A DNA stretch of 42,523 bases from Minisyncoccia bacterium (GTDB lineage: Bacteria > Patescibacteriota > Minisyncoccia > Phycocordibacterales > UBA918), in the NCBI GenBank assembly GCA_050292865.1, contig JBNKMC010000001.1:1-42523 (forward strand), in the 5' to 3' direction. The notes below the pieces were generated by a model. The model was not told the DNA's origin. It saw only the letters and a program-made list of their open reading frames with translations, and made no database searches. Position numbers and translations under genes: made by a program. The first letter of the stretch is position 1. Every line of letters starts with the position of its first letter. This document shows, piece by piece, positions 6,684 to 33,247 of this stretch.

Positions 6684-6746
6684 TTGTTAAGGGTGGGTAT
6701 AAGTGTGGGTAGAAAGTTCGTGTAAATAAATGAAATATAAGGTTTG

Positions 6747-6790
6747 CCGTAGCAGAAAGTGCCTAATTCTTCGGACTTTTTCTGCTACGG
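6747..6790 (+). other. Stem-loop at the left boundary of the GC-rich island (12-bp stem, loop containing C-UUCG-G)
   Basis: CCGTAGCAGAAA ... TTTCTGCTACGG. Base composition switches to GC-rich immediately 3' of it. Confidence 0.4.
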
Positions 6791-6839
6791 CGCACCCAAT
6801 CCCGGGAAGGTTGTAGCAAACTGATAGGAGGATGACGCC

Positions 6840-7463
6840 ATGGCCAAGACCATGACCGCACCCCAGCAGAAACCGATGACCGACGGCCAGATCGAAGACG
6901 CGGTGTCGAAGTTCCGTGACGCGGTGCGCAAGCATCGCAACGAGCTCGACTCCGAGGCTGTCCAGAAAGTTCTCGGTACCGACAACCTCGGAATGGTGCT
7001 CTTCGCACCGTTCCGCAAGCTCGTCGAGATGGTGAACAATATGTTCACCCGCCGGGTCGAGGGCATCAACCGCGACCAAAGCCCACAAGAGGCGATTGAT
7101 GCGACGGGCCGCAAACAGTACACGGACCAGTCGGTCGTGGACGCGATGCCTCGCGGTGAGGGCGAGAACGTCGAGCTGAAGTTCTTCGAGCTCGACTACG
7201 ACCCAACTCCCACCGAGCTCAACGCCGAGTATGAGAGCCTCGGCCTCAAGGCCGATCCCTTCGCCCTGGCTAAGCACATGGAGGACGATCCGGCGTTCGC
7301 AGACGAACGTCCCGTGGCCTGCCAGTGGGACCTCGACGAGAACGGCAGGGCTTCCTTCGCCGCGTTCTCGCAGTGGCGCGTCGAGCGGCGCGTGCACGTC
7401 GACCGCGGCGACGACAAGTGGTTTCGCCTCTATCGGTTCGCCGGTGTCTCGAAATCAACCTGA
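6840..7463 (+). CDS. Hypothetical protein (207 aa), a GC-rich compositional outlier with no recognisable domain
   Basis: SD AGGAGGA at 6826..6832, 7 nt before the ATG. GC-rich third codon positions. Own intrinsic terminator. The overlapping ORFs on both strands are shadows expected in high-GC DNA. Confidence 0.75.
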   Translation: MAKTMTAPQQKPMTDGQIEDAVSKFRDAVRKHRNELDSEAVQKVLGTDNLGMVLFAPFRKLVEMVNNMFTRRVEGINRDQSPQEAIDATGRKQYTDQSVVDAMPRGEGENVELKFFELDYDPTPTELNAEYESLGLKADPFALAKHMEDDPAFADERPVACQWDLDENGRASFAAFSQWRVERRVHVDRGDDKWFRLYRFAGVSKST

Positions 7464-7481
7464 TATTTCTGTTTTCTCTTG

Positions 7482-7516
7482 GTCCGGCGCACTTGCGCGC
7501 CGGACTTTTCTTTTTA
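7482..7516 (+). terminator. Intrinsic terminator of the GC-rich gene
   Basis: GTCCGGCGC ACTTGC GCGCCGGAC followed by TTTTCTTTTT. Confidence 0.8.
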
Positions 7517-21283: not shown

Positions 21284-21733
21284 ATGCCTATGCCCCGCCA
21301 ATCAACCCAATTCGACTTTGGAGACTCTCGCAAACCACAGGAAGACTTTGTGCTGCTTGAAAAAATAATCGAGGACCGAGGGAGTAGATATTCGGTGAGT
21401 TATGGGCGAGTTGAGTCGCGTCAAGAAATCAAAGGTTTCTTGACGCGACTCAAATCAGATAAGAAATACGCCAAGGCGTCTCACAACAGTTGGGCTGCCC
21501 GTGTCACCCACGAAGGAGTCGTCTACGAAACCAAAAACGACGACGGAGAAACGGGCGCAGGCATGGTCATACTCCGTGTCATGCAGAAGGAGGATGTCAC
21601 TGACTGCATCATCTGCGTCACCCGCTGGTTCGGTGGCATCAAACTAATGGGCGACCGTTTCAAACACATCCAAGACGCCACCAAACACGCCATTGAATCC
21701 GAGGGGTTTAACCCCTCGGATTCAATCAATTAA
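21284..21733 (+). CDS. YigZ/IMPACT-family protein (UPF0029 N-terminal domain)
   Basis: KGSRY-like GSRYSVSYG, ASHNSWAARV, DDGETGAGMVIL and VTRWFGGIKLMG motifs. The last 13 codons are encoded by the REP-like hairpin. Confidence 0.85.
   Translation: MPMPRQSTQFDFGDSRKPQEDFVLLEKIIEDRGSRYSVSYGRVESRQEIKGFLTRLKSDKKYAKASHNSWAARVTHEGVVYETKNDDGETGAGMVILRVMQKEDVTDCIICVTRWFGGIKLMGDRFKHIQDATKHAIESEGFNPSDSIN
21694..21724. repeat. REP-like hairpin, left copy (14-bp stem, TTA loop)
   Basis: TGAATCCGAGGGGT TTA ACCCCTCGGATTCA. Confidence 0.85.
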
Positions 21734-22335
21734 GTCTCTGTTTTTAGAATACGTCTTTCTTCAGCAATCATTTTTGCGATTTTAATACTCTCCTTCAAAT
21801 CATACTTGGTAGACTTGCTAGGTAAAATTTTTGAACAAAACAACCCTTGATAGTGAAACGAACTAGAGTAACAAATTTCGTTTGGGCGATTGATTTCGTG
21901 AACAAAATGGTTTTCATTAACATATGAAAATAAATAATTATAGTATTCATCAGTATCTATATGTATTCGTTTAAATGTGCCCTGAAAAAGCGAACCAGAC
22001 CTCTCTTCCTTATCATTAAAATACGAAGTATAGCCACCAGCAACTCGTTTCATAAACTCACTTATACCACCATCAACCAACTGCTCTAAAATAAGATGAA
22101 AATGATTTGGAAGTAGAGAATAGGCATAAACCTGCACCAAACGATCATCCAAAAGCCGTTCTTTATTTTTTGAATCTTCGAAGTTATGTGTAGGTTCAAT
22201 TGTGTTAAAAACATCTAGCGACATATAAAATCGTACGAAGTCGCTCTTCGAAGAGAAAATATTTCTCTTGTCAGTACCTCTGTTGTATACATGATATTTT
22301 TCACCACTGACTAATTCAATTACTTTCCTTGCCAT
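21730..22335 (-). CDS. IS200/RAYT-type Y1 (HUH) transposase-like protein
   Basis: HUH motif in LLPNHFHLIL, conserved QG.F (LFQGTFKR), and a Tyr-containing YVNENH motif near the C-terminal third. Confidence 0.8.
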   Translation of the reverse strand: MARKVIELVSGEKYHVYNRGTDKRNIFSSKSDFVRFYMSLDVFNTIEPTHNFEDSKNKERLLDDRLVQVYAYSLLPNHFHLILEQLVDGGISEFMKRVAGGYTSYFNDKEERSGSLFQGTFKRIHIDTDEYYNYLFSYVNENHFVHEINRPNEICYSSSFHYQGLFCSKILPSKSTKYDLKESIKIAKMIAEERRILKTET

Positions 22336-30984: not shown

Positions 30985-31036
30985 ACCTTATATCATGTTA
31001 TTATTTATTTAATATTTAGTAGGTTAAAAAAGACAT

Positions 31037-31294
31037 ATGCCATTTGAAGGATTACCACAAAGAAACGAGCAGCTCGACGAAAATGTAAAAAATGATATCA
31101 TCGCGTACCTTACAGATATGGGTATGTCAGCCGACGAACTTCTAACTCCAACAGCTGAAGATACTGAAGAAAACATCAGTTTAGCTCGTCGGCAATTATG
31201 CGAATTTTTAGATTCAGATACGGGGATAAAAATTGATGAAGAGAAACTAATAGAATATCTTACCGAGGTAAGAAGTAACAACGAGAATCAATAA
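31037..31294 (+). CDS. Hypothetical acidic protein (85 aa)
   Basis: Clean ORF followed by a hairpin. No motif recognised. Confidence 0.5.
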   Translation: MPFEGLPQRNEQLDENVKNDIIAYLTDMGMSADELLTPTAEDTEENISLARRQLCEFLDSDTGIKIDEEKLIEYLTEVRSNNENQ

Positions 31295-31296
31295 TC

Positions 31297-31331
31297 AAAA
31301 CAGCGGGAAAGCTCCGCTTTCCCGCTGTTTT
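31297..31331. terminator. Perfect hairpin (16-bp stem, TCC loop) with A/T runs on both sides
   Basis: AAAACAGCGGGAAAGC TCC GCTTTCCCGCTGTTTT. Confidence 0.7.
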
Positions 31332-31359
31332 GACTGTATCGTCATGGTATTATTTCTCT

Positions 31360-32106
31360 ATGACAACTATGTCTCCTGACATTGATATCTTCTCTATTAA
31401 AACCGAAGTCTTTGAAGGACCTCTGGAGCTACTTTTGGAGTTGGTAGAAAAGCGCAAACTGCTCATCAACGACATCTCACTCGCCGAAGTGACAGACGAA
31501 TACATGGCACGCGTCTCAGACATGCAGGAGAAGTCCCTACCAAACACAGCCCAGTTTGTACAACTGGCCGCTACTTTGCTACTCATAAAATCCAAGTCAC
31601 TCCTGCCAGTTTTGGAACTTTCTCAAGAAGAGGAGGAGATCATCGATGACTTAGAGATTCGCTTGCGTCGTTACGCCATTTATCGTGATATTGCGAAGGG
31701 GATAGAGGAGCAATTTGGCAGCAAAATGCTCCACGAGCGACAATATGTACCAGACCTCACGCCACTTTTTGTGACAGACCACTTCACTACCACAGAAGCT
31801 CTGCGTGAGTCAATGAACGACGTACTAAGTAACCTACCCAAGAAGGTAGAGCAGCCAAAGGTTCGTGTAAAAAAAGTTATTTCTCTGGACGAAATGATTG
31901 CTAGACTTGAGACTCGCATCAAAGAACAAATGAACCTACGTTTTAGTGAACTACTAGAAAATGAAAAAGAAAAACCAATCGTGATTGTCGGTTTCTTAGC
32001 CGTCTTGGAATCCGTTAAACAAGGCAGTATTTTAGTAGAACAGGCCGAACGCTTCGCCGATATAGAAATCAGTGTCGAAGGACCAGTTACACCTAGGTAT
32101 TATTAA
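31360..32106 (+). CDS. scpA: Segregation and condensation protein A
   Basis: FEGPLELLLELVEKRKLLINDISLAEVTDEY is the typical ScpA N-terminus. ATG at 31360. Confidence 0.88.
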   Translation: MTTMSPDIDIFSIKTEVFEGPLELLLELVEKRKLLINDISLAEVTDEYMARVSDMQEKSLPNTAQFVQLAATLLLIKSKSLLPVLELSQEEEEIIDDLEIRLRRYAIYRDIAKGIEEQFGSKMLHERQYVPDLTPLFVTDHFTTTEALRESMNDVLSNLPKKVEQPKVRVKKVISLDEMIARLETRIKEQMNLRFSELLENEKEKPIVIVGFLAVLESVKQGSILVEQAERFADIEISVEGPVTPRYY

Positions 32107-32110
32107 AGAC

Positions 32111-32142
32111 AAAAGAAAAGGCGCAACCACATGGATTGCGCC
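32111..32142 (-). terminator. Intrinsic terminator oriented for the minus strand
   Basis: On the minus strand: GGCGCAATCCATGTGGTTGCGCC followed by TTTTCTTTT. On the plus strand no T-run follows. Confidence 0.65.
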
Positions 32143-32555
32143 GTTGTGTGAGCTTTACTGCGGGGTACTCAACACGCGGAAGCTCGCAAACTTCCTAACC
32201 CTTTAGGCTGTGATTTTCAGAGTCAGCCTTCTACTCCGTAACGTCCAGGTAGTTTACACCACCCAGACGCAATATAATCGTTCAAAAAACATGCCGTTGT
32301 CCTTTTTGCTTACCTGCAACCAAATCTAATCTCCGTCGTGGAGAATAGGCGGTTGCAGGACTTACGGGGCCGAGCCATGGCATCCTCGTCAGGAGATGCT
32401 CCCTAGAGGCGCTGCGGCTCGGCGGCCGGCGCGCGGCGATCAGATCGCAGCGGCGGCGATCTGATCGGGGATACCATTACGCGGGAAAAGCTCTTCCCGC
32501 GGCGGGCCAGAATCGAAGAACAGTTTCATCGCTTTCTCCTTTTTTTGGTTGCGAT
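32113..32555 (-). ncRNA. Candidate structured RNA of about 440 nt (unknown family) transcribed antisense between scpA and scpB
   Basis: Promoter and terminator both face the minus strand. At least six strong helices are present. One helix (32241..32270) has G-U pairs only when read on the minus strand. The core is very GC-rich. I found no RNase P, tmRNA or SRP signature. Confidence 0.45.
32440..32529 (-). CDS. Possible 29-aa sORF (MKLFFDSGPPREELFPRNGIPDQIAAAAI) at the 5' end of the antisense unit
   Basis: AAGGAGAAAGCG precedes the ATG. However, the ORF is built from two perfect hairpins (8 bp and 11 bp), so it may be non-coding. Confidence 0.25.
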   Translation of the reverse strand: MKLFFDSGPPREELFPRNGIPDQIAAAAI

Positions 32556-32561
32556 TTAAAT

Positions 32562-32589
32562 ATACTAGCACATGTAAAATATTTGTCAA
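32562..32589 (-). promoter_or_regulatory. Minus-strand promoter: TTGACA, 16-nt spacer, TGc-TAGTAT (extended -10)
   Basis: Reverse complement of 32562..32589 reads TTGACAAATATTTTACATGTGCTAGTAT. Confidence 0.5.
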
Positions 32590-32701
32590 TAGTAGGCAAG
32601 CGAAACTAGGAAATGTCAAAAAGGGTGTTCTATACAAAATAGACTAACCACAGGAGAAAATCGCACAGAGGGGTAAAAAAAGCTATAATAAACAGGTAAA
32701 T

Positions 32702-33247
32702 ATGGATGGATTATCGCTCGACCAGAAGCTCGAAGGAGTTTTGTTTTACAAAGGTACACCGCAGAAAAAGGCGGCGCTTTGTAAGTTGTTTGAAGTGGGG
32801 GAAGAGGAGCTTGGCACCGCTCTCAAGGCGCTCAAAGAGCGCCTTGAGAGCGGTGCCCTTCGACTCCTCGAGACAGACACCGACATCCAACTAGTCACCA
32901 CCTCAGAGATGGACGAACTTATCGAGTCTATCCGCAAAGACGAACTCAAACGTGACATTGGTAAAGCCGGCGCCGAGACACTTGCTATCATTCTTTATCG
33001 TGGACCACTGACTCGCCCAGACATCGACCGTATTCGCGGTGTCAACTCAGCCTTCATCCTACGCAACCTTCTTATGCGTGGTTTGGTAGAACGCCAACAA
33101 AAAGGCAATACCTACACCTTCGACATCACCCCAACCCTACTGGCTCACCTTGGTGTTACCAGCAAGCAAGACTTGCCAGATAGAGACATTATCCTCGACC
33201 AACTGGAAGCCTTTGAACGCGATGTAGCAGAACAAGAGAACGCCTAA
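32702..33247 (+). CDS. scpB: Segregation and condensation protein B
   Basis: LEGVLFY.G.P and winged-helix repeats (AETLAIILYRGPLTRPDIDRIRGV). Confidence 0.9.
   Translation: MDGLSLDQKLEGVLFYKGTPQKKAALCKLFEVGEEELGTALKALKERLESGALRLLETDTDIQLVTTSEMDELIESIRKDELKRDIGKAGAETLAIILYRGPLTRPDIDRIRGVNSAFILRNLLMRGLVERQQKGNTYTFDITPTLLAHLGVTSKQDLPDRDIILDQLEAFERDVAEQENA

What the first reader, a model, noticed from the sequence alone, without database searches (positions are those of the whole stretch)
32107..32701. scpA and scpB are split by a self-contained antisense unit encoding a large GC-rich structured RNA, possibly with a 29-aa sORF
scpA and scpB are normally adjacent or overlapping. Here about 590 bp separates them, and the signals in this gap all face the minus strand. 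There is a TTGACA/16 nt/TGc-TAGTAT promoter (32562..32589) and a hairpin plus U-run terminator (32111..32142). Between them lies about 440 nt containing many strong helices. These include CGCGGGAA/TTCCCGCG; an 11-bp GATCAGATCGC/GCGATCTGATC; GCCGAGCC/GGCTCGGC enclosing a further helix; CCTGCAACC/GGTTGCAGG enclosing CTCC/GGAG; and GGCTG/CAGCC. The helix at 32241..32270 has three to four G-U pairs when read on the minus strand, which would be A-C mismatches on the plus strand, so the functional strand is minus. My hand count of line 32401..32460 gives about 78% GC, against roughly 40% in flanking genes. A strong SD plus ATG opens a 29-aa ORF, but that ORF consists almost entirely of two perfect hairpins, and its stop codon lies in the 3' arm of the second. 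It could be a dual-function RNA, a translation-sensitive switch, or purely non-coding. I could not match it to RNase P, tmRNA, SRP, 6S or hammerhead signatures.
Basis: partly seen in the sequence, partly recalled or inferred. Interest (0 to 1): 0.7.

Follow-up and report, generated by a model that had tools for sequence, protein, structure and literature searches.

The report
Small-peptide RNA gene splitting scpA–scpB
The 595-bp gap between scpA and scpB holds a real, self-contained gene on the opposite strand: an unannotated transcript that starts with a short, fast-evolving peptide ORF and continues as a structured RNA tail, and its relatives occupy the same genomic slot in a minority of other Paceibacteria.

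Summary
The 595-nt gap (32107..32701) carries a strong minus-strand promoter, an SD+ATG, a 29-codon ORF, about 300 nt of stable helices and an intrinsic terminator next to the scpA stop. It matches no Rfam family, tRNA or tmRNA.

Of 138 related Patescibacteria loci, 86 have scpA and scpB 130 nt or less apart and 44 carry inserts of 230 nt or more. The inserts read were almost all on the minus strand and their cargo is diverse. About 24 share this unit's front end: promoter, SD, AT-rich first codons (MKxFF..), a GC3-rich variable ORF body, a C-TGA stop and a GC-only stretch.

The ORF looks translated. Its indels preserve the reading frame, its peptide motifs vary synonymously, and GC3 far exceeds GC2.

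A same-species strain (L165) has the same unit. The ORF body is unalignable between the two. The 3' domain differs by only 8% (paired bases 3%), against 18-38% at fourfold sites of neighbouring genes. All 12 changed base pairs stay paired on the minus strand only, and two are compensatory.

Best reading: a translated hypervariable small ORF plus a selected structured RNA tail, sitting in a variable "slot". The function is unknown. I found no wider homologues of the 3' domain.

The parts
31330..32106 (+). scpA. The longest ORF starts at a TTG at 31330; the homologous start called in strain L165 corresponds to 31369.
   Evidence: Pfam SMC_ScpA, E 7.8e-19; ORF list.
32702..33247 (+). scpB.
   Evidence: Pfam SMC_ScpB, E 5.6e-34; 4103 homologues.
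32684..32689 (+). TATAAT box 12 nt upstream of the scpB ATG. Probably scpB's own promoter, giving a near-leaderless mRNA (inferred).
   Evidence: Read from the sequence. The GCTATAAT..ATG arrangement is kept in L165, and a similar TATAAT..ATG arrangement is present in L081-L084, both with and without the insert. The consensus scan did not call it.
32562..32589 (-). Sigma-70-type promoter of the unit: TTGACA, 16 nt, TG-c-TAGTAT. The TSS is inferred near 32555.
   Evidence: 10 of 12 matches, TG present. Nearly identical in L105, and conserved in L088, L084, L165 and L167.
32536..32542 (-). Shine-Dalgarno AAAGGAG, 6 nt before the ATG of sORF1.
   Evidence: Every one of the 22 family members listed has a purine-rich GGAG-type SD (GGAG, GAGG or AAGGA) 4-10 nt before its ATG.
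32440..32529 (-). sORF1: 29 codons plus TGA, MKLFFDSGPPREELFPRNGIPDQIAAAAI.
   Evidence: Homologous to the sORFs of L165 (MKLFFDSDSGRVALAVSTEKDDI) and L105 (MKTFFPPGAPDH..AALIT).
32440..32509 (-). Hypervariable body of sORF1. Contains the two perfect hairpins at 32480..32501 and 32438..32466.
   Evidence: Window versus L165: 46% differences plus an in-frame 18-nt indel. The 47 nt upstream differ at only 1 position.
32416..32439 (-). GC-only stretch after the stop (TCGCCGCGCGCCGGCCGCCGAGCC). It includes the GGCCGCCGA-like motif shared across the family.
   Evidence: GGCCGCCGA / GGCCGAC / GGCGCCGAC variants follow the stop in most members.
32369..32423 (-). Helix H4: GCCGAGCC..GGCTCGGC enclosing a GGGAG/CUCC hairpin.
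   Evidence: The region is 33% diverged from L165 yet the helix is kept, with CG->UA and GC->AU compensatory pairs and four G-U/A-U or G-U/G-C switches.
32235..32368 (-). Three-way-junction domain: closing stem CCGUA/UACGG, H5 (32313..32359), a single-stranded junction carrying the second SD-like site and ATG, and H7 (32241..32270, GUAA tetraloop).
   Evidence: Changes against L165 in H5 and H7 are G-U compatible only on the minus strand. The covariance model finds it only in the window and L165.
32254..32292 (-). Mini-ORF2: MFFERLYCVWVV here, MFSKRRPYVWVV in L165. Its stop TAA lies in the H7 tetraloop. Translation is not established.
   Evidence: The variable patch differs at 8 of 15 nt with no indel. 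SD2+ATG mini-ORFs of 6-20 codons occur at the equivalent place in L083, L168, L009, L034, L041, L144 and L015.
32146..32229 (-). Three further helices: H8 32205..32229, H9 32178..32195, H10 32146..32175.
   Evidence: The region differs from L165 by 6%, and the changes fall in loops or are G-U compatible.
32110..32142 (-). Intrinsic terminator (9-bp stem plus UUUUCUUUUG), ending a few nt from the scpA stop codon.
   Evidence: A UG->UA switch keeps the stem in L165.

Best explanation
The gap holds one independent minus-strand gene of about 440 nt.

Anatomy. A strong constitutive-type promoter (32589..32562) drives a transcript that starts about 25 nt before a strong SD. The ribosome translates sORF1 (32529..32440). 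Its first seven codons, its last codon and its stop are fixed, while its body is replaced or diverges faster than neutral sites between strains. The rest of the transcript (32439..32110) folds into a series of helices (H4, a three-way junction, three more hairpins and the terminator). These helices are held by purifying selection.

Proposed working. I read this as a dual-nature RNA.
(a) The product that varies between strains is a short, non-hydrophobic peptide. A second mini-peptide from ORF2 in the junction of the three-way domain may also be made.
(b) The folded 3' part is functional RNA. At the least it acts as a stabilising and terminating tail and as the frame that presents the second SD/ATG. 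It may also have an activity of its own.

Genomic setting. The unit sits in a permissive slot: scpB has its own promoter in this clade. Many relatives carry other small minus-strand cargo in the same slot. Content there appears to be exchanged by recombination between the conserved flanks.

Shown: the unit's signals, its strand, the structure conservation, the hypervariable patch, the family and the slot.
Inferred: translation, what the peptide does, and any activity of the RNA tail.
For: Signals and fold.

Family and slot:
- 138 loci carry both genes; 86 have a gap of 130 nt or less and 44 a gap of 230 nt or more.
- The closest ScpB relatives at 66-71% identity lack the insert.
- About 24 loci share the pattern promoter / SD / MKxFF.. 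/ GC3-rich ORF / C-TGA / GC stretch.
- nhmmer aligns only promoter-to-stop+25 nt with L105 (E 3e-8), L088, L084 and L132.

Coding signatures:
- 22 of 22 intact members have a GGAG-type SD+ATG, and 21 of 22 end in TGA. TGA ends only 3 of the 36 other tabulated genes of the window, the GC-rich 207-aa gene aside.
- GC3 is 0.58-0.94 and above GC2 in 12 of the 14 members measured.
- The motifs F-D-P-G-G-H and I-D-x-x-G-A-G are kept through synonymous codon changes.
- ORF indels are 3, 6, 9, 18 and 39 nt, while flanking indels are 1, 2, 4 and 11 nt.

Structured tail:
- Against L165 the 3' domain differs by 8.0% (paired 3.1%, unpaired 16.2%). Fourfold sites differ by 18% (scpB), 38% (S11 peptidase gene) and 33% (mraY).
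- 12 of 12 changed pairs are kept on the minus strand, 10 of 12 break on the plus strand, and 2 are compensatory.

Hypervariability: the sORF1 body differs by 46% plus an indel, and the ORF2 patch by 53%, within a 92-100% identical frame. The L049/L112/L116/L132 alleles are mosaics.
Against: - There are no expression, ribosome or peptide data.
- GC-rich sequence has few stop codons, so long ORFs arise easily there.
- In L088 the conserved stop is out of frame with the SD-proximal ATG. In L167 the ORF is broken into short pieces. Translation of a defined peptide is therefore not universal.
- The window's own peptide scores only 13.8 bits against the family HMM and lacks the GAG motif.
- The structure comparison rests on two sequences, and the consensus fold was predicted on that same alignment. 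The same helices do appear in the single-sequence fold.
- The 3' domain has no homologue in the 69 sources searched (364 kb), so its general importance is unproven.
- The peptide body evolves at or above the neutral rate. Relaxed constraint would produce that pattern as readily as diversifying selection.
Confidence: 0.5

Rival explanations
1. Purely non-coding structured RNA. The ORF is incidental, and the variable 5' segment is an RNA-level variable region such as a spacer or target-recognition stretch.
For: The fold is strong and the helices are selected. The ORF body is made of hairpins in the window. L088 and L167 lack an intact in-frame ORF. ORF2 ends inside a GNRA tetraloop, as expected if its sequence is dictated by structure.
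Against: All 22 intact members have an SD+ATG. Indels inside the ORF preserve the frame, while flanking indels do not. Peptide motifs vary synonymously, and GC3 far exceeds GC2. The hairpins inside the ORF are not conserved even in the sister strain. No Rfam family matches.
Confidence: 0.15
2. A cis-acting insulator or antisense module. What matters is strong convergent transcription towards scpA and a terminator between scpA and scpB, which would tune or uncouple the two genes. On this view the transcribed content is largely irrelevant.
For: In the gaps read, very different cargoes occupy the same slot and are almost always in the minus orientation, with a terminator at the scpA end. A minus-strand TTGACW promoter lies within 260 nt of the scpB end of the gap (mostly 45-90 nt in) in 34 of 46 long gaps. 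The promoter region overlaps a sequence conserved even in loci without the insert.
Against: Most relatives (86 of 138), including the closest ones below species level, manage without any insert. The 3' domain is under base-pair-level purifying selection, which an arbitrary spacer would not need. The terminator leaves almost no antisense overlap with scpA.
Confidence: 0.12
3. A neutral remnant. The slot accumulates decaying fragments of mobile or horizontally acquired GC-rich DNA that still carry expression signals.
For: The distribution is sporadic and the composition is atypical: GC3-rich with a TGA stop, against GC3 of 0.29-0.59 and mostly TAA stops in the window's other genes. Some copies are degenerate (L088, L167). 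The ORF body diverges very fast.
Against: Promoter, SD, start, stop and 3' helices are conserved above the neutral level between strains. No similarity was found to phage, plasmid or viral collections. No repeat copies occur elsewhere in the window.
Confidence: 0.1
4. A type I toxin-antitoxin-like or two-peptide addiction cassette. A structured mRNA keeps a small toxic peptide (ORF2 or sORF1) silent until the leader ORF is translated or the RNA is processed.
For: The features in common are a roughly 400-nt highly structured mRNA with two small ORFs; a second SD inside or next to a hairpin in several members (GGGAG..CUCCC before the ATG in L009, L034 and L168); a sporadic, slot-like distribution; and two hypervariable patches that could be a co-evolving pair.
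Against: sORF1 peptides are hydrophilic, rich in G/A/D/T/P, and have no membrane-spanning stretch. ORF2 is 6-20 aa and is not conserved. No plus-strand antisense promoter was called within the unit. PADLOC, Pfam, NCBIfam and Rfam gave no hit.
Confidence: 0.08
5. The target end of a diversity-generating retroelement: a variable region, then a GC-only IMH-like stretch, then a hairpin.
For: The layout looks like one: a hypervariable ORF 3' part, a run of 24 GC-only bases, then a stable hairpin (H4). From my own knowledge, DGRs are common in CPR bacteria.
Against: The 42.5-kb window has no template-repeat copy. No reverse transcriptase was found among its ORFs of 120 aa or more that were scanned. 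The strain differences include indels and are not confined to adenine-templated positions.
Confidence: 0.02

Closest known systems
Dual-function (coding) small RNAs: S. aureus RNAIII/hld, E. coli SgrS/SgrT, B. subtilis SR1/SR1P
   Same: One promoter-to-terminator transcript of a few hundred nt combines a 26-43-aa-class ORF with extensive, selected secondary structure. It stands alone between unrelated genes.
   Different: There is no sequence or structure homology (Rfam negative). No base-pairing target is known. The ORF sits at the extreme 5' end and is hypervariable between strains. The unit lives in a fixed genomic slot shared with unrelated cargo.
Precursor-peptide genes with a conserved leader and hypervariable core (double-glycine bacteriocins and pheromones, prochlorosin-type RiPP precursors)
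   Same: The N-terminus is conserved and the C-terminal part hypervariable. A G-A-G / G-G motif precedes a short variable tail in 9 or more members. Expression signals are strong, the alleles are mosaic, and the distribution is sporadic.
   Different: The conserved N-terminal part is only 7-10 residues. The window's own peptide lacks the GG/GAG motif. No C39-peptidase transporter, radical-SAM enzyme or lanthipeptide enzyme is in the window. No precursor family in NCBIfam or Pfam matches.
Type I toxin mRNAs (hok/mok-type, highly folded mRNAs with a leader ORF)
   Same: The size, the dense folding, the two short ORFs, the SD sequestration in some members and the patchy distribution.
   Different: The peptides are not hydrophobic. 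No antisense RNA gene was detected. There are no family hits.
Variable 'hot-spot' slots between conserved core genes (integration hot spots, small accessory islands)
   Same: The same core-gene junction carries nothing in most genomes and different cargo in others. Cargo includes sORF units, other RNA-like units, small proteins of unknown family and a Ham1-family gene.
   Different: The cargo is very small (0.2-1.9 kb). No integrase, att-type repeats or tRNA lie next to the slot. The orientation is almost always antisense.
Large structured bacterial ncRNAs of unknown function (OLE, GOLLD, HEARO/omega RNA, ROOL, raiA)
   Same: A long intergenic RNA with many helices and its own promoter and terminator.
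   Different: None of these Rfam models matches, even at E <= 10. The structured domain here has been seen in one species only, and the conserved part of the family is the ORF end.

Membership tests
Any Rfam 15 family (RNase P, tmRNA, SRP, 6S, OLE, GOLLD, HEARO, ROOL, raiA, riboswitches, group I/II introns, TA RNAs) | Covariance-model score at or above the family gathering threshold | tested here: not met
   No hits at gathering score over the whole window. Only chance-level hits (E >= 0.18, far below threshold) in 31900..32900. No hits in 20 related loci.
tRNA / tmRNA | ARAGORN-detectable tRNA-like fold and tag ORF | tested here: not met
   No such genes in the window.
Diversity-generating retroelement target (VR) | A template repeat about 80-90% identical to the variable region, nearby | tested here: not met
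   A self-BLAST of the gap against the 42.5-kb window finds only its own inverted repeats.
Diversity-generating retroelement target (VR) | An associated reverse transcriptase | tested here: not met
   No RT domain among the window ORFs of 120 aa or more that were scanned. The rest of the genome cannot be tested.
Diversity-generating retroelement target (VR) | Variation confined to adenine-templated positions, with length kept | tested here: not met
   The window and L165 differ by an 18-nt indel and by unalignable sequence.
Type I toxin-antitoxin | A small hydrophobic, membrane-spanning toxin peptide | tested here: not met
   sORF1 peptides are rich in G/A/D/T/P with no hydrophobic stretch of 15 or more residues. 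ORF2 is 6-20 aa.
Type I toxin-antitoxin | A cis- or trans-encoded antisense RNA with its own promoter | tested here: inconclusive
   No plus-strand promoter-like site was called within 32107..32560. A consensus scan cannot exclude one.
Double-glycine / RiPP precursor peptides | A match to a curated precursor family, or a leader of about 15-25 aa ending in GG/GA | tested here: not met
   No NCBIfam or Pfam hit at E <= 10. The window peptide has no GG/GA motif. Other members have G-A-G but only 7-10 conserved N-terminal residues.
Double-glycine / RiPP precursor peptides | A cognate maturation or export enzyme in the genome | not testable with these tools
   None is in the 42.5-kb window. The rest of the genome is not available.
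Dual-function (ORF-bearing) regulatory RNA, as a functional kind | The ORF is translated | tested here: inconclusive
   The comparative signatures favour translation: SD+ATG in 22 of 22, indels in multiples of three, synonymous variation in motifs, and GC3 periodicity. There is no direct evidence.
Dual-function (ORF-bearing) regulatory RNA, as a functional kind | The RNA part has selected structure | tested here: met
   12 of 12 changed pairs are kept, 2 are compensatory, and paired positions are 5-fold more conserved than unpaired ones and 6-12-fold more than fourfold sites. Only two sequences were compared.
Dual-function (ORF-bearing) regulatory RNA, as a functional kind | The RNA part acts on a target by base pairing or protein binding | not testable with these tools
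   No significant complementarity elsewhere in the window. There are no expression or interaction data.

The most novel reading that the evidence does not exclude
The unit is a strain-specificity cassette of ultra-small Paceibacteria. It would be a fixed expression frame (promoter, SD, first codons, stop, folded tail) into which hypervariable, compositionally foreign (GC3-rich, TGA-ending) peptide-coding segments are swapped or rapidly diversified. The two hypervariable patches (sORF1 body and ORF2 junction patch) would co-vary as a cognate pair, for example signal/immunity or toxin/antidote. That would make it a previously unseen peptide-diversification system kept in the scpA-scpB slot of a lineage whose cell-cell or host interactions are almost unknown.
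Probability: 0.12. Interest if true: 0.8.

Novelty: new variant of a known kind. Interest (0 to 1): 0.5.

Why it matters
Candidate Phyla Radiation bacteria are uncultured, and their small genes and RNAs are essentially unannotated. Here one strongly signalled transcript shows both coding and structural selection. It belongs to a family that gene callers miss almost completely: a scan of 1.84 billion representative proteins returned only three of the query's own members. It also marks a recurrent variable slot inside an otherwise conserved chromosome-segregation and cell-wall gene cluster.

If the peptide is made, its strain-level hypervariability within a fixed frame is the pattern seen at loci involved in recognition, competition or defence. 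That would give a concrete handle on how these episymbiont-like cells differ from one another.

If only the RNA matters, it is a new structured RNA whose strand and helices are already defined for probing.

Either way, the practical lessons are two. A GC-rich intergenic island in these genomes does not have to be a classical ncRNA. And the scpA-scpB spacer is a useful place to look for accessory small genes.

Tried and rejected
- Rfam at gathering and permissive thresholds, on the window and on 20 related loci: nothing.
- ARAGORN: nothing.
- Exact-pattern scans of viral contigs with the 11-bp hairpin and the H5 helix: no hits.
- blastn of the transcript against the phage and plasmid collections: no match.
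- Pfam, NCBIfam, PADLOC and PHROGs on the small peptides and on other slot cargo: no family apart from one Ham1-family gene in L131.
- Profile search of the peptide family against 5.8 billion proteins and against 1.84 billion representatives: only the query members came back.
- HMM of the peptides against all short ORFs of 164 loci and the window: no copy outside the scpA-scpB gap.
- Covariance model of the three-way-junction domain against 69 sources: only the window and L165.
- DGR idea: rejected. No template repeat, no RT, and indel-type variation.
- 'Stop codon buried in a hairpin' as a conserved switch: rejected. Pairing probability of the stop codon across 22 members is no higher than in shuffles.
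- GC-richness as a mark of high expression: rejected. Ribosomal-protein genes and dnaK have GC3 of 0.37-0.47.
- GC-richness as transfer from outside the phylum: not supported for the other GC-rich gene of the window, whose family is restricted to Patescibacteria.
- Exact look-up of the window's own ScpB (P0001): not on record. The sister strain was reached through its cluster mate P0128.
- Literature searches for an scpA/scpB antisense unit or Patescibacteria ncRNAs: nothing relevant.
Full report
1. OBSERVATION. The window is a 45.1% GC segment of a Paceibacteria-type (Patescibacteria/CPR) genome. It carries housekeeping genes: mnmA, ribosomal proteins, rpoA, grpE-dnaK-dnaJ, tRNA synthetases, scpA, scpB, a D-Ala-D-Ala carboxypeptidase, mraY, ftsW, murG and a XerC/D-like recombinase.

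scpA ends at 32106 and scpB starts at 32702.
- The promoter is TTGACA/16/TG-c-TAGTAT at 32589..32562 on the minus strand. It is the best promoter-like site in the region.
- A 9-bp G+C-rich hairpin plus U-run lies at 32142..32110.
- The listed helices are in the sequence.
- The 13-bp helix at 32241..32270 has four G-U pairs on the minus strand.
- The line 32401..32460 is 78.3% GC.
- An SD+ATG opens a 29-codon ORF at 32529..32440 that is built largely of two perfect hairpins.
- The minus strand folds at -187.9 kcal/mol, with z = -6.85 against dinucleotide shuffles.
- Two independent assemblies of a sister strain show the same architecture, so it is not an assembly artefact.

2. NOT A KNOWN RNA OR PROTEIN. 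Rfam 15 gives nothing at gathering thresholds for the window or for 20 related loci, and only chance-level matches at E <= 10. ARAGORN finds no tRNA or tmRNA. The transcript has no similarity in the phage, plasmid or viral-contig collections. The peptides match no family in Pfam, NCBIfam, PADLOC or PHROGs.

3. THE GAP IS A RECURRENT SLOT. I fetched 171 scpB loci from genomes and metagenomes. 138 hold both genes.
- 86 have a spacer of 130 nt or less, 8 have 131-229 nt, and 44 have 230-1937 nt.
- The closest relatives below species level (ScpB 66-71% identical: L081, L085, L086, L087, L148) have no insert. The insert is therefore sporadic.
- The long gaps read carry self-contained units almost always on the minus strand, with a TTGACW promoter towards the scpB end of the gap and a terminator at the scpA end.
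- The cargo differs between loci. It includes small-ORF units like the one here, unrelated RNA-like units (L039, L054), small proteins of no known family, and a Ham1-family gene.
- A TATAAT box lies 12 nt before the scpB ATG and is kept in several of these loci, with or without an insert. This suggests that scpB is transcribed on its own, which would explain why the site tolerates insertions. This step is an inference.

4. A FAMILY DEFINED BY ITS FRONT END. About 24 loci share with the window the following elements:
- the promoter, which is nearly identical in L105;
- an SD 4-10 nt before the ATG;
- AT-rich first codons (MKxFF...);
- a G+C-rich ORF body of 23-52 codons;
- a stop that is TGA in 21 of 22 cases, preceded by C;
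- a GC-only stretch with a GGCCGCCGA / GGCCGAC-type motif.

nhmmer aligns only this part of the window, from the promoter to about 25 nt past the stop, with L105 (E 3e-8), L088, L084 and L132. The roughly 300 nt downstream has no detectable relative. A covariance model of its three-way-junction domain finds nothing in 69 sources apart from the window and its sister strain.

5. THE ORF LOOKS TRANSLATED.
(i) Every intact member has a GGAG-type SD plus ATG.
(ii) GC3 (0.58-0.94) exceeds GC2 in 12 of the 14 members measured. Selection for RNA structure alone would not create this three-base periodicity.
(iii) Two peptide motifs recur with synonymous codon changes such as GAT/GAC, CCC/CCG/CCT and GCC/GCT/GCG. 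They are [FY]-D-P-G-G-H near the N-terminus and I-D-x-x-G-A-G(-x-D-L) further on.
(iv) Indels inside the ORF are 3, 6, 9, 18 and 39 nt, whereas indels in the flanks of the same alignments are 1, 2, 4 and 11 nt.

There are counter-examples. In L088 the conserved stop is out of frame with the SD-proximal ATG, and in L167 the ORF is fragmented. GC-rich DNA also has few stops by chance. Gene callers miss the family almost entirely: profile searches of 5.8 billion proteins and of 1.84 billion representatives returned only query members.

6. THE SISTER STRAIN SEPARATES TWO KINDS OF SEQUENCE. L165/L166 (ScpB at least 90% identical) carry the same unit.
- The 47 nt from the TSS through codon 7 differ at one position.
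- The ORF body is then unalignable: 46% differences plus an in-frame 18-nt indel, giving MKLFFDSDSGRVALAVSTEKDDI against MKLFFDSGPPREELFPRNGIPDQIAAAAI. The alignment resumes at ATCTGA.
- Neither perfect hairpin of the window is present in L165.
- The post-stop region with helix H4 is 33% diverged, yet the helix is kept. CG->UA and GC->AU are compensatory pairs, and four further changes switch between G-U and Watson-Crick pairs.
- The remaining 3' domain (32110..32368) differs by only 8.0%: 3.1% at paired and 16.2% at unpaired positions. Fourfold-degenerate sites differ by 18% in scpB, 38% in the S11 peptidase gene and 33% in mraY.
- All 12 base pairs that changed downstream of the stop remain canonical or G-U on the minus strand. 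Ten of them would be A-C mismatches on the plus strand. This supports both the strand and the fold.
- The caveats are that only two sequences were compared and that the consensus fold was computed on that alignment. The same helices appear in the single-sequence fold.

7. A SECOND SMALL ORF. In the single-stranded junction of the three-way domain lie an SD-like AAGGA and an ATG (32292) that opens a 12-codon ORF. Its stop is the GUAA tetraloop of H7.
- Between the strains a 15-nt patch there differs at 8 positions without an indel (MFFERLYCVWVV against MFSKRRPYVWVV), inside otherwise 96% identical sequence.
- SD2+ATG mini-ORFs of 6-20 codons occur at the equivalent place in L083, L168, L009, L034, L041, L144 and L015. 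Several have the SD in or beside a small hairpin.
- Whether these mini-ORFs are translated is open.

8. COMPOSITION. The window's other genes have GC3 of 0.29-0.59, and TGA ends only 3 of 36 of them. Ribosomal-protein genes and dnaK are not GC3-rich, so high GC3 does not mark high expression. The sORF, and more strongly its relatives, is compositionally atypical. So is a stand-alone 207-aa gene at 6840..7463 (GC3 0.83, TGA stop). That gene's family is nevertheless restricted to Patescibacteria. In L172 it is again GC-rich and sits at another genomic location. I cannot tell from these data whether the cause is gene flow within the phylum, biased gene conversion at recombining loci, or selection.

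9. IDEAS TESTED AND DROPPED.
- DGR target: no template repeat, no RT, and indel-type variation.
- Stop codon in a hairpin as a conserved translational switch: pairing probability is no higher than in shuffles.
- Type I toxin: the peptides are hydrophilic, and no antisense promoter was called within the unit.
- Phage or plasmid origin: no hits.

10. INTERPRETATION. The best-supported reading (confidence about 0.5) is a stand-alone, strongly expressed minus-strand transcript with two natures. It has a translated 5' small ORF whose body is hypervariable between strains, and a 3' structured RNA held by purifying selection. It sits in a permissive slot that other lineages fill with other small cargo.
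- What the peptide or the RNA does is not known.
- The pattern of fixed frame, variable core and mosaic alleles resembles loci for recognition, competition or signalling peptides.
- The folded tail at least stabilises and terminates the message and presents the second start site.
- The rivals are a purely non-coding RNA (0.15), a cis-acting insulator or antisense module (0.12), a neutral remnant (0.10), a toxin-antitoxin-like cassette (0.08) and a DGR target (0.02).

11. NOVELTY AND SCORE. The kind, an ORF-bearing structured RNA, is known. This family, its hypervariable core inside a fixed frame, and the scpA-scpB slot in Paceibacteria are, as far as these tools and two literature searches show, undescribed. 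I rate it a new variant of a known kind, with interest 0.5.

Noticed in passing
window 6700..7515: A second GC-rich island (62% GC, GC3 0.83, TGA stop). It is a stand-alone 207-aa gene (6840..7463, + strand) with its own promoter-like site, leader hairpin, AGGAGG SD and terminator, lying between an oligoendopeptidase gene and alaS. It has no Pfam family. Its 117 homologues are, wherever a source names the organism, all from Patescibacteria. In L172 the homologue is again GC-rich (0.61-0.71 against 0.41-0.53 in the flanks) and sits at a different location (between an M50 peptidase gene and rpsL).
   Followed up: partly
window 31000..31340: An 85-aa acidic ORF (31037..31294, + strand, no Pfam family) followed by a 20-bp hairpin (31293..31335). 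Both are absent from sister strain L165, where the M29 peptidase gene is followed directly by scpA. This is another small strain-specific insertion in an intergenic spacer.
   Followed up: partly
window 32684..32701; also L165, L081-L084: A TATAAT box lies 12 nt before the scpB ATG with no SD in between, and the arrangement is kept in several relatives. scpB may be transcribed as a near-leaderless mRNA from its own promoter.
   Followed up: no
window 32583..32600 (minus strand CTTGCCTACTATTGACAA); L081, L084, L088, L167: The -35 box of the unit lies inside a sequence (TTGTCTACTATTGACA-like, partly palindromic) that is conserved even in relatives without an insert. It could be an operator shared by the divergent promoters, or the recombination flank of the slot.
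   Followed up: no
L039 2641..3001 and L054 2699..3001 (minus strand): These two loci have a different, mutually similar unit of about 200 nt in the same slot (..CAGTTCCCC..GGTCACC..CCCGCTAAGTT..GAATCGCGAG..), with promoter and terminator. It has no obvious ORF and no Rfam hit.
   Followed up: no
L049, L112, L116, L132 (scpA-scpB gaps): The sORF alleles here are rich in His/Gly repeats (GDAAGHGAGHNNVGDAGGHGSGH..), are mosaics of one another, and are followed after a terminator by a conserved 132-aa gene of no known family. The repeats suggest metal binding. The arrangement suggests read-through control of the downstream gene.
   Followed up: partly
L056, L108, L030 (scpA-scpB gaps): Two or three promoter-to-terminator units are stacked head to tail in the same slot.
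   Followed up: no
window 21733..22335 (minus strand): An AT-rich (33% GC) 201-aa ORF with a borderline match to the IS200-like Y1 transposase family (E 8.7e-5, at the Pfam cut-off), on the strand opposite its neighbours. No repeated palindromes linked to it were seen in the window.
   Followed up: no
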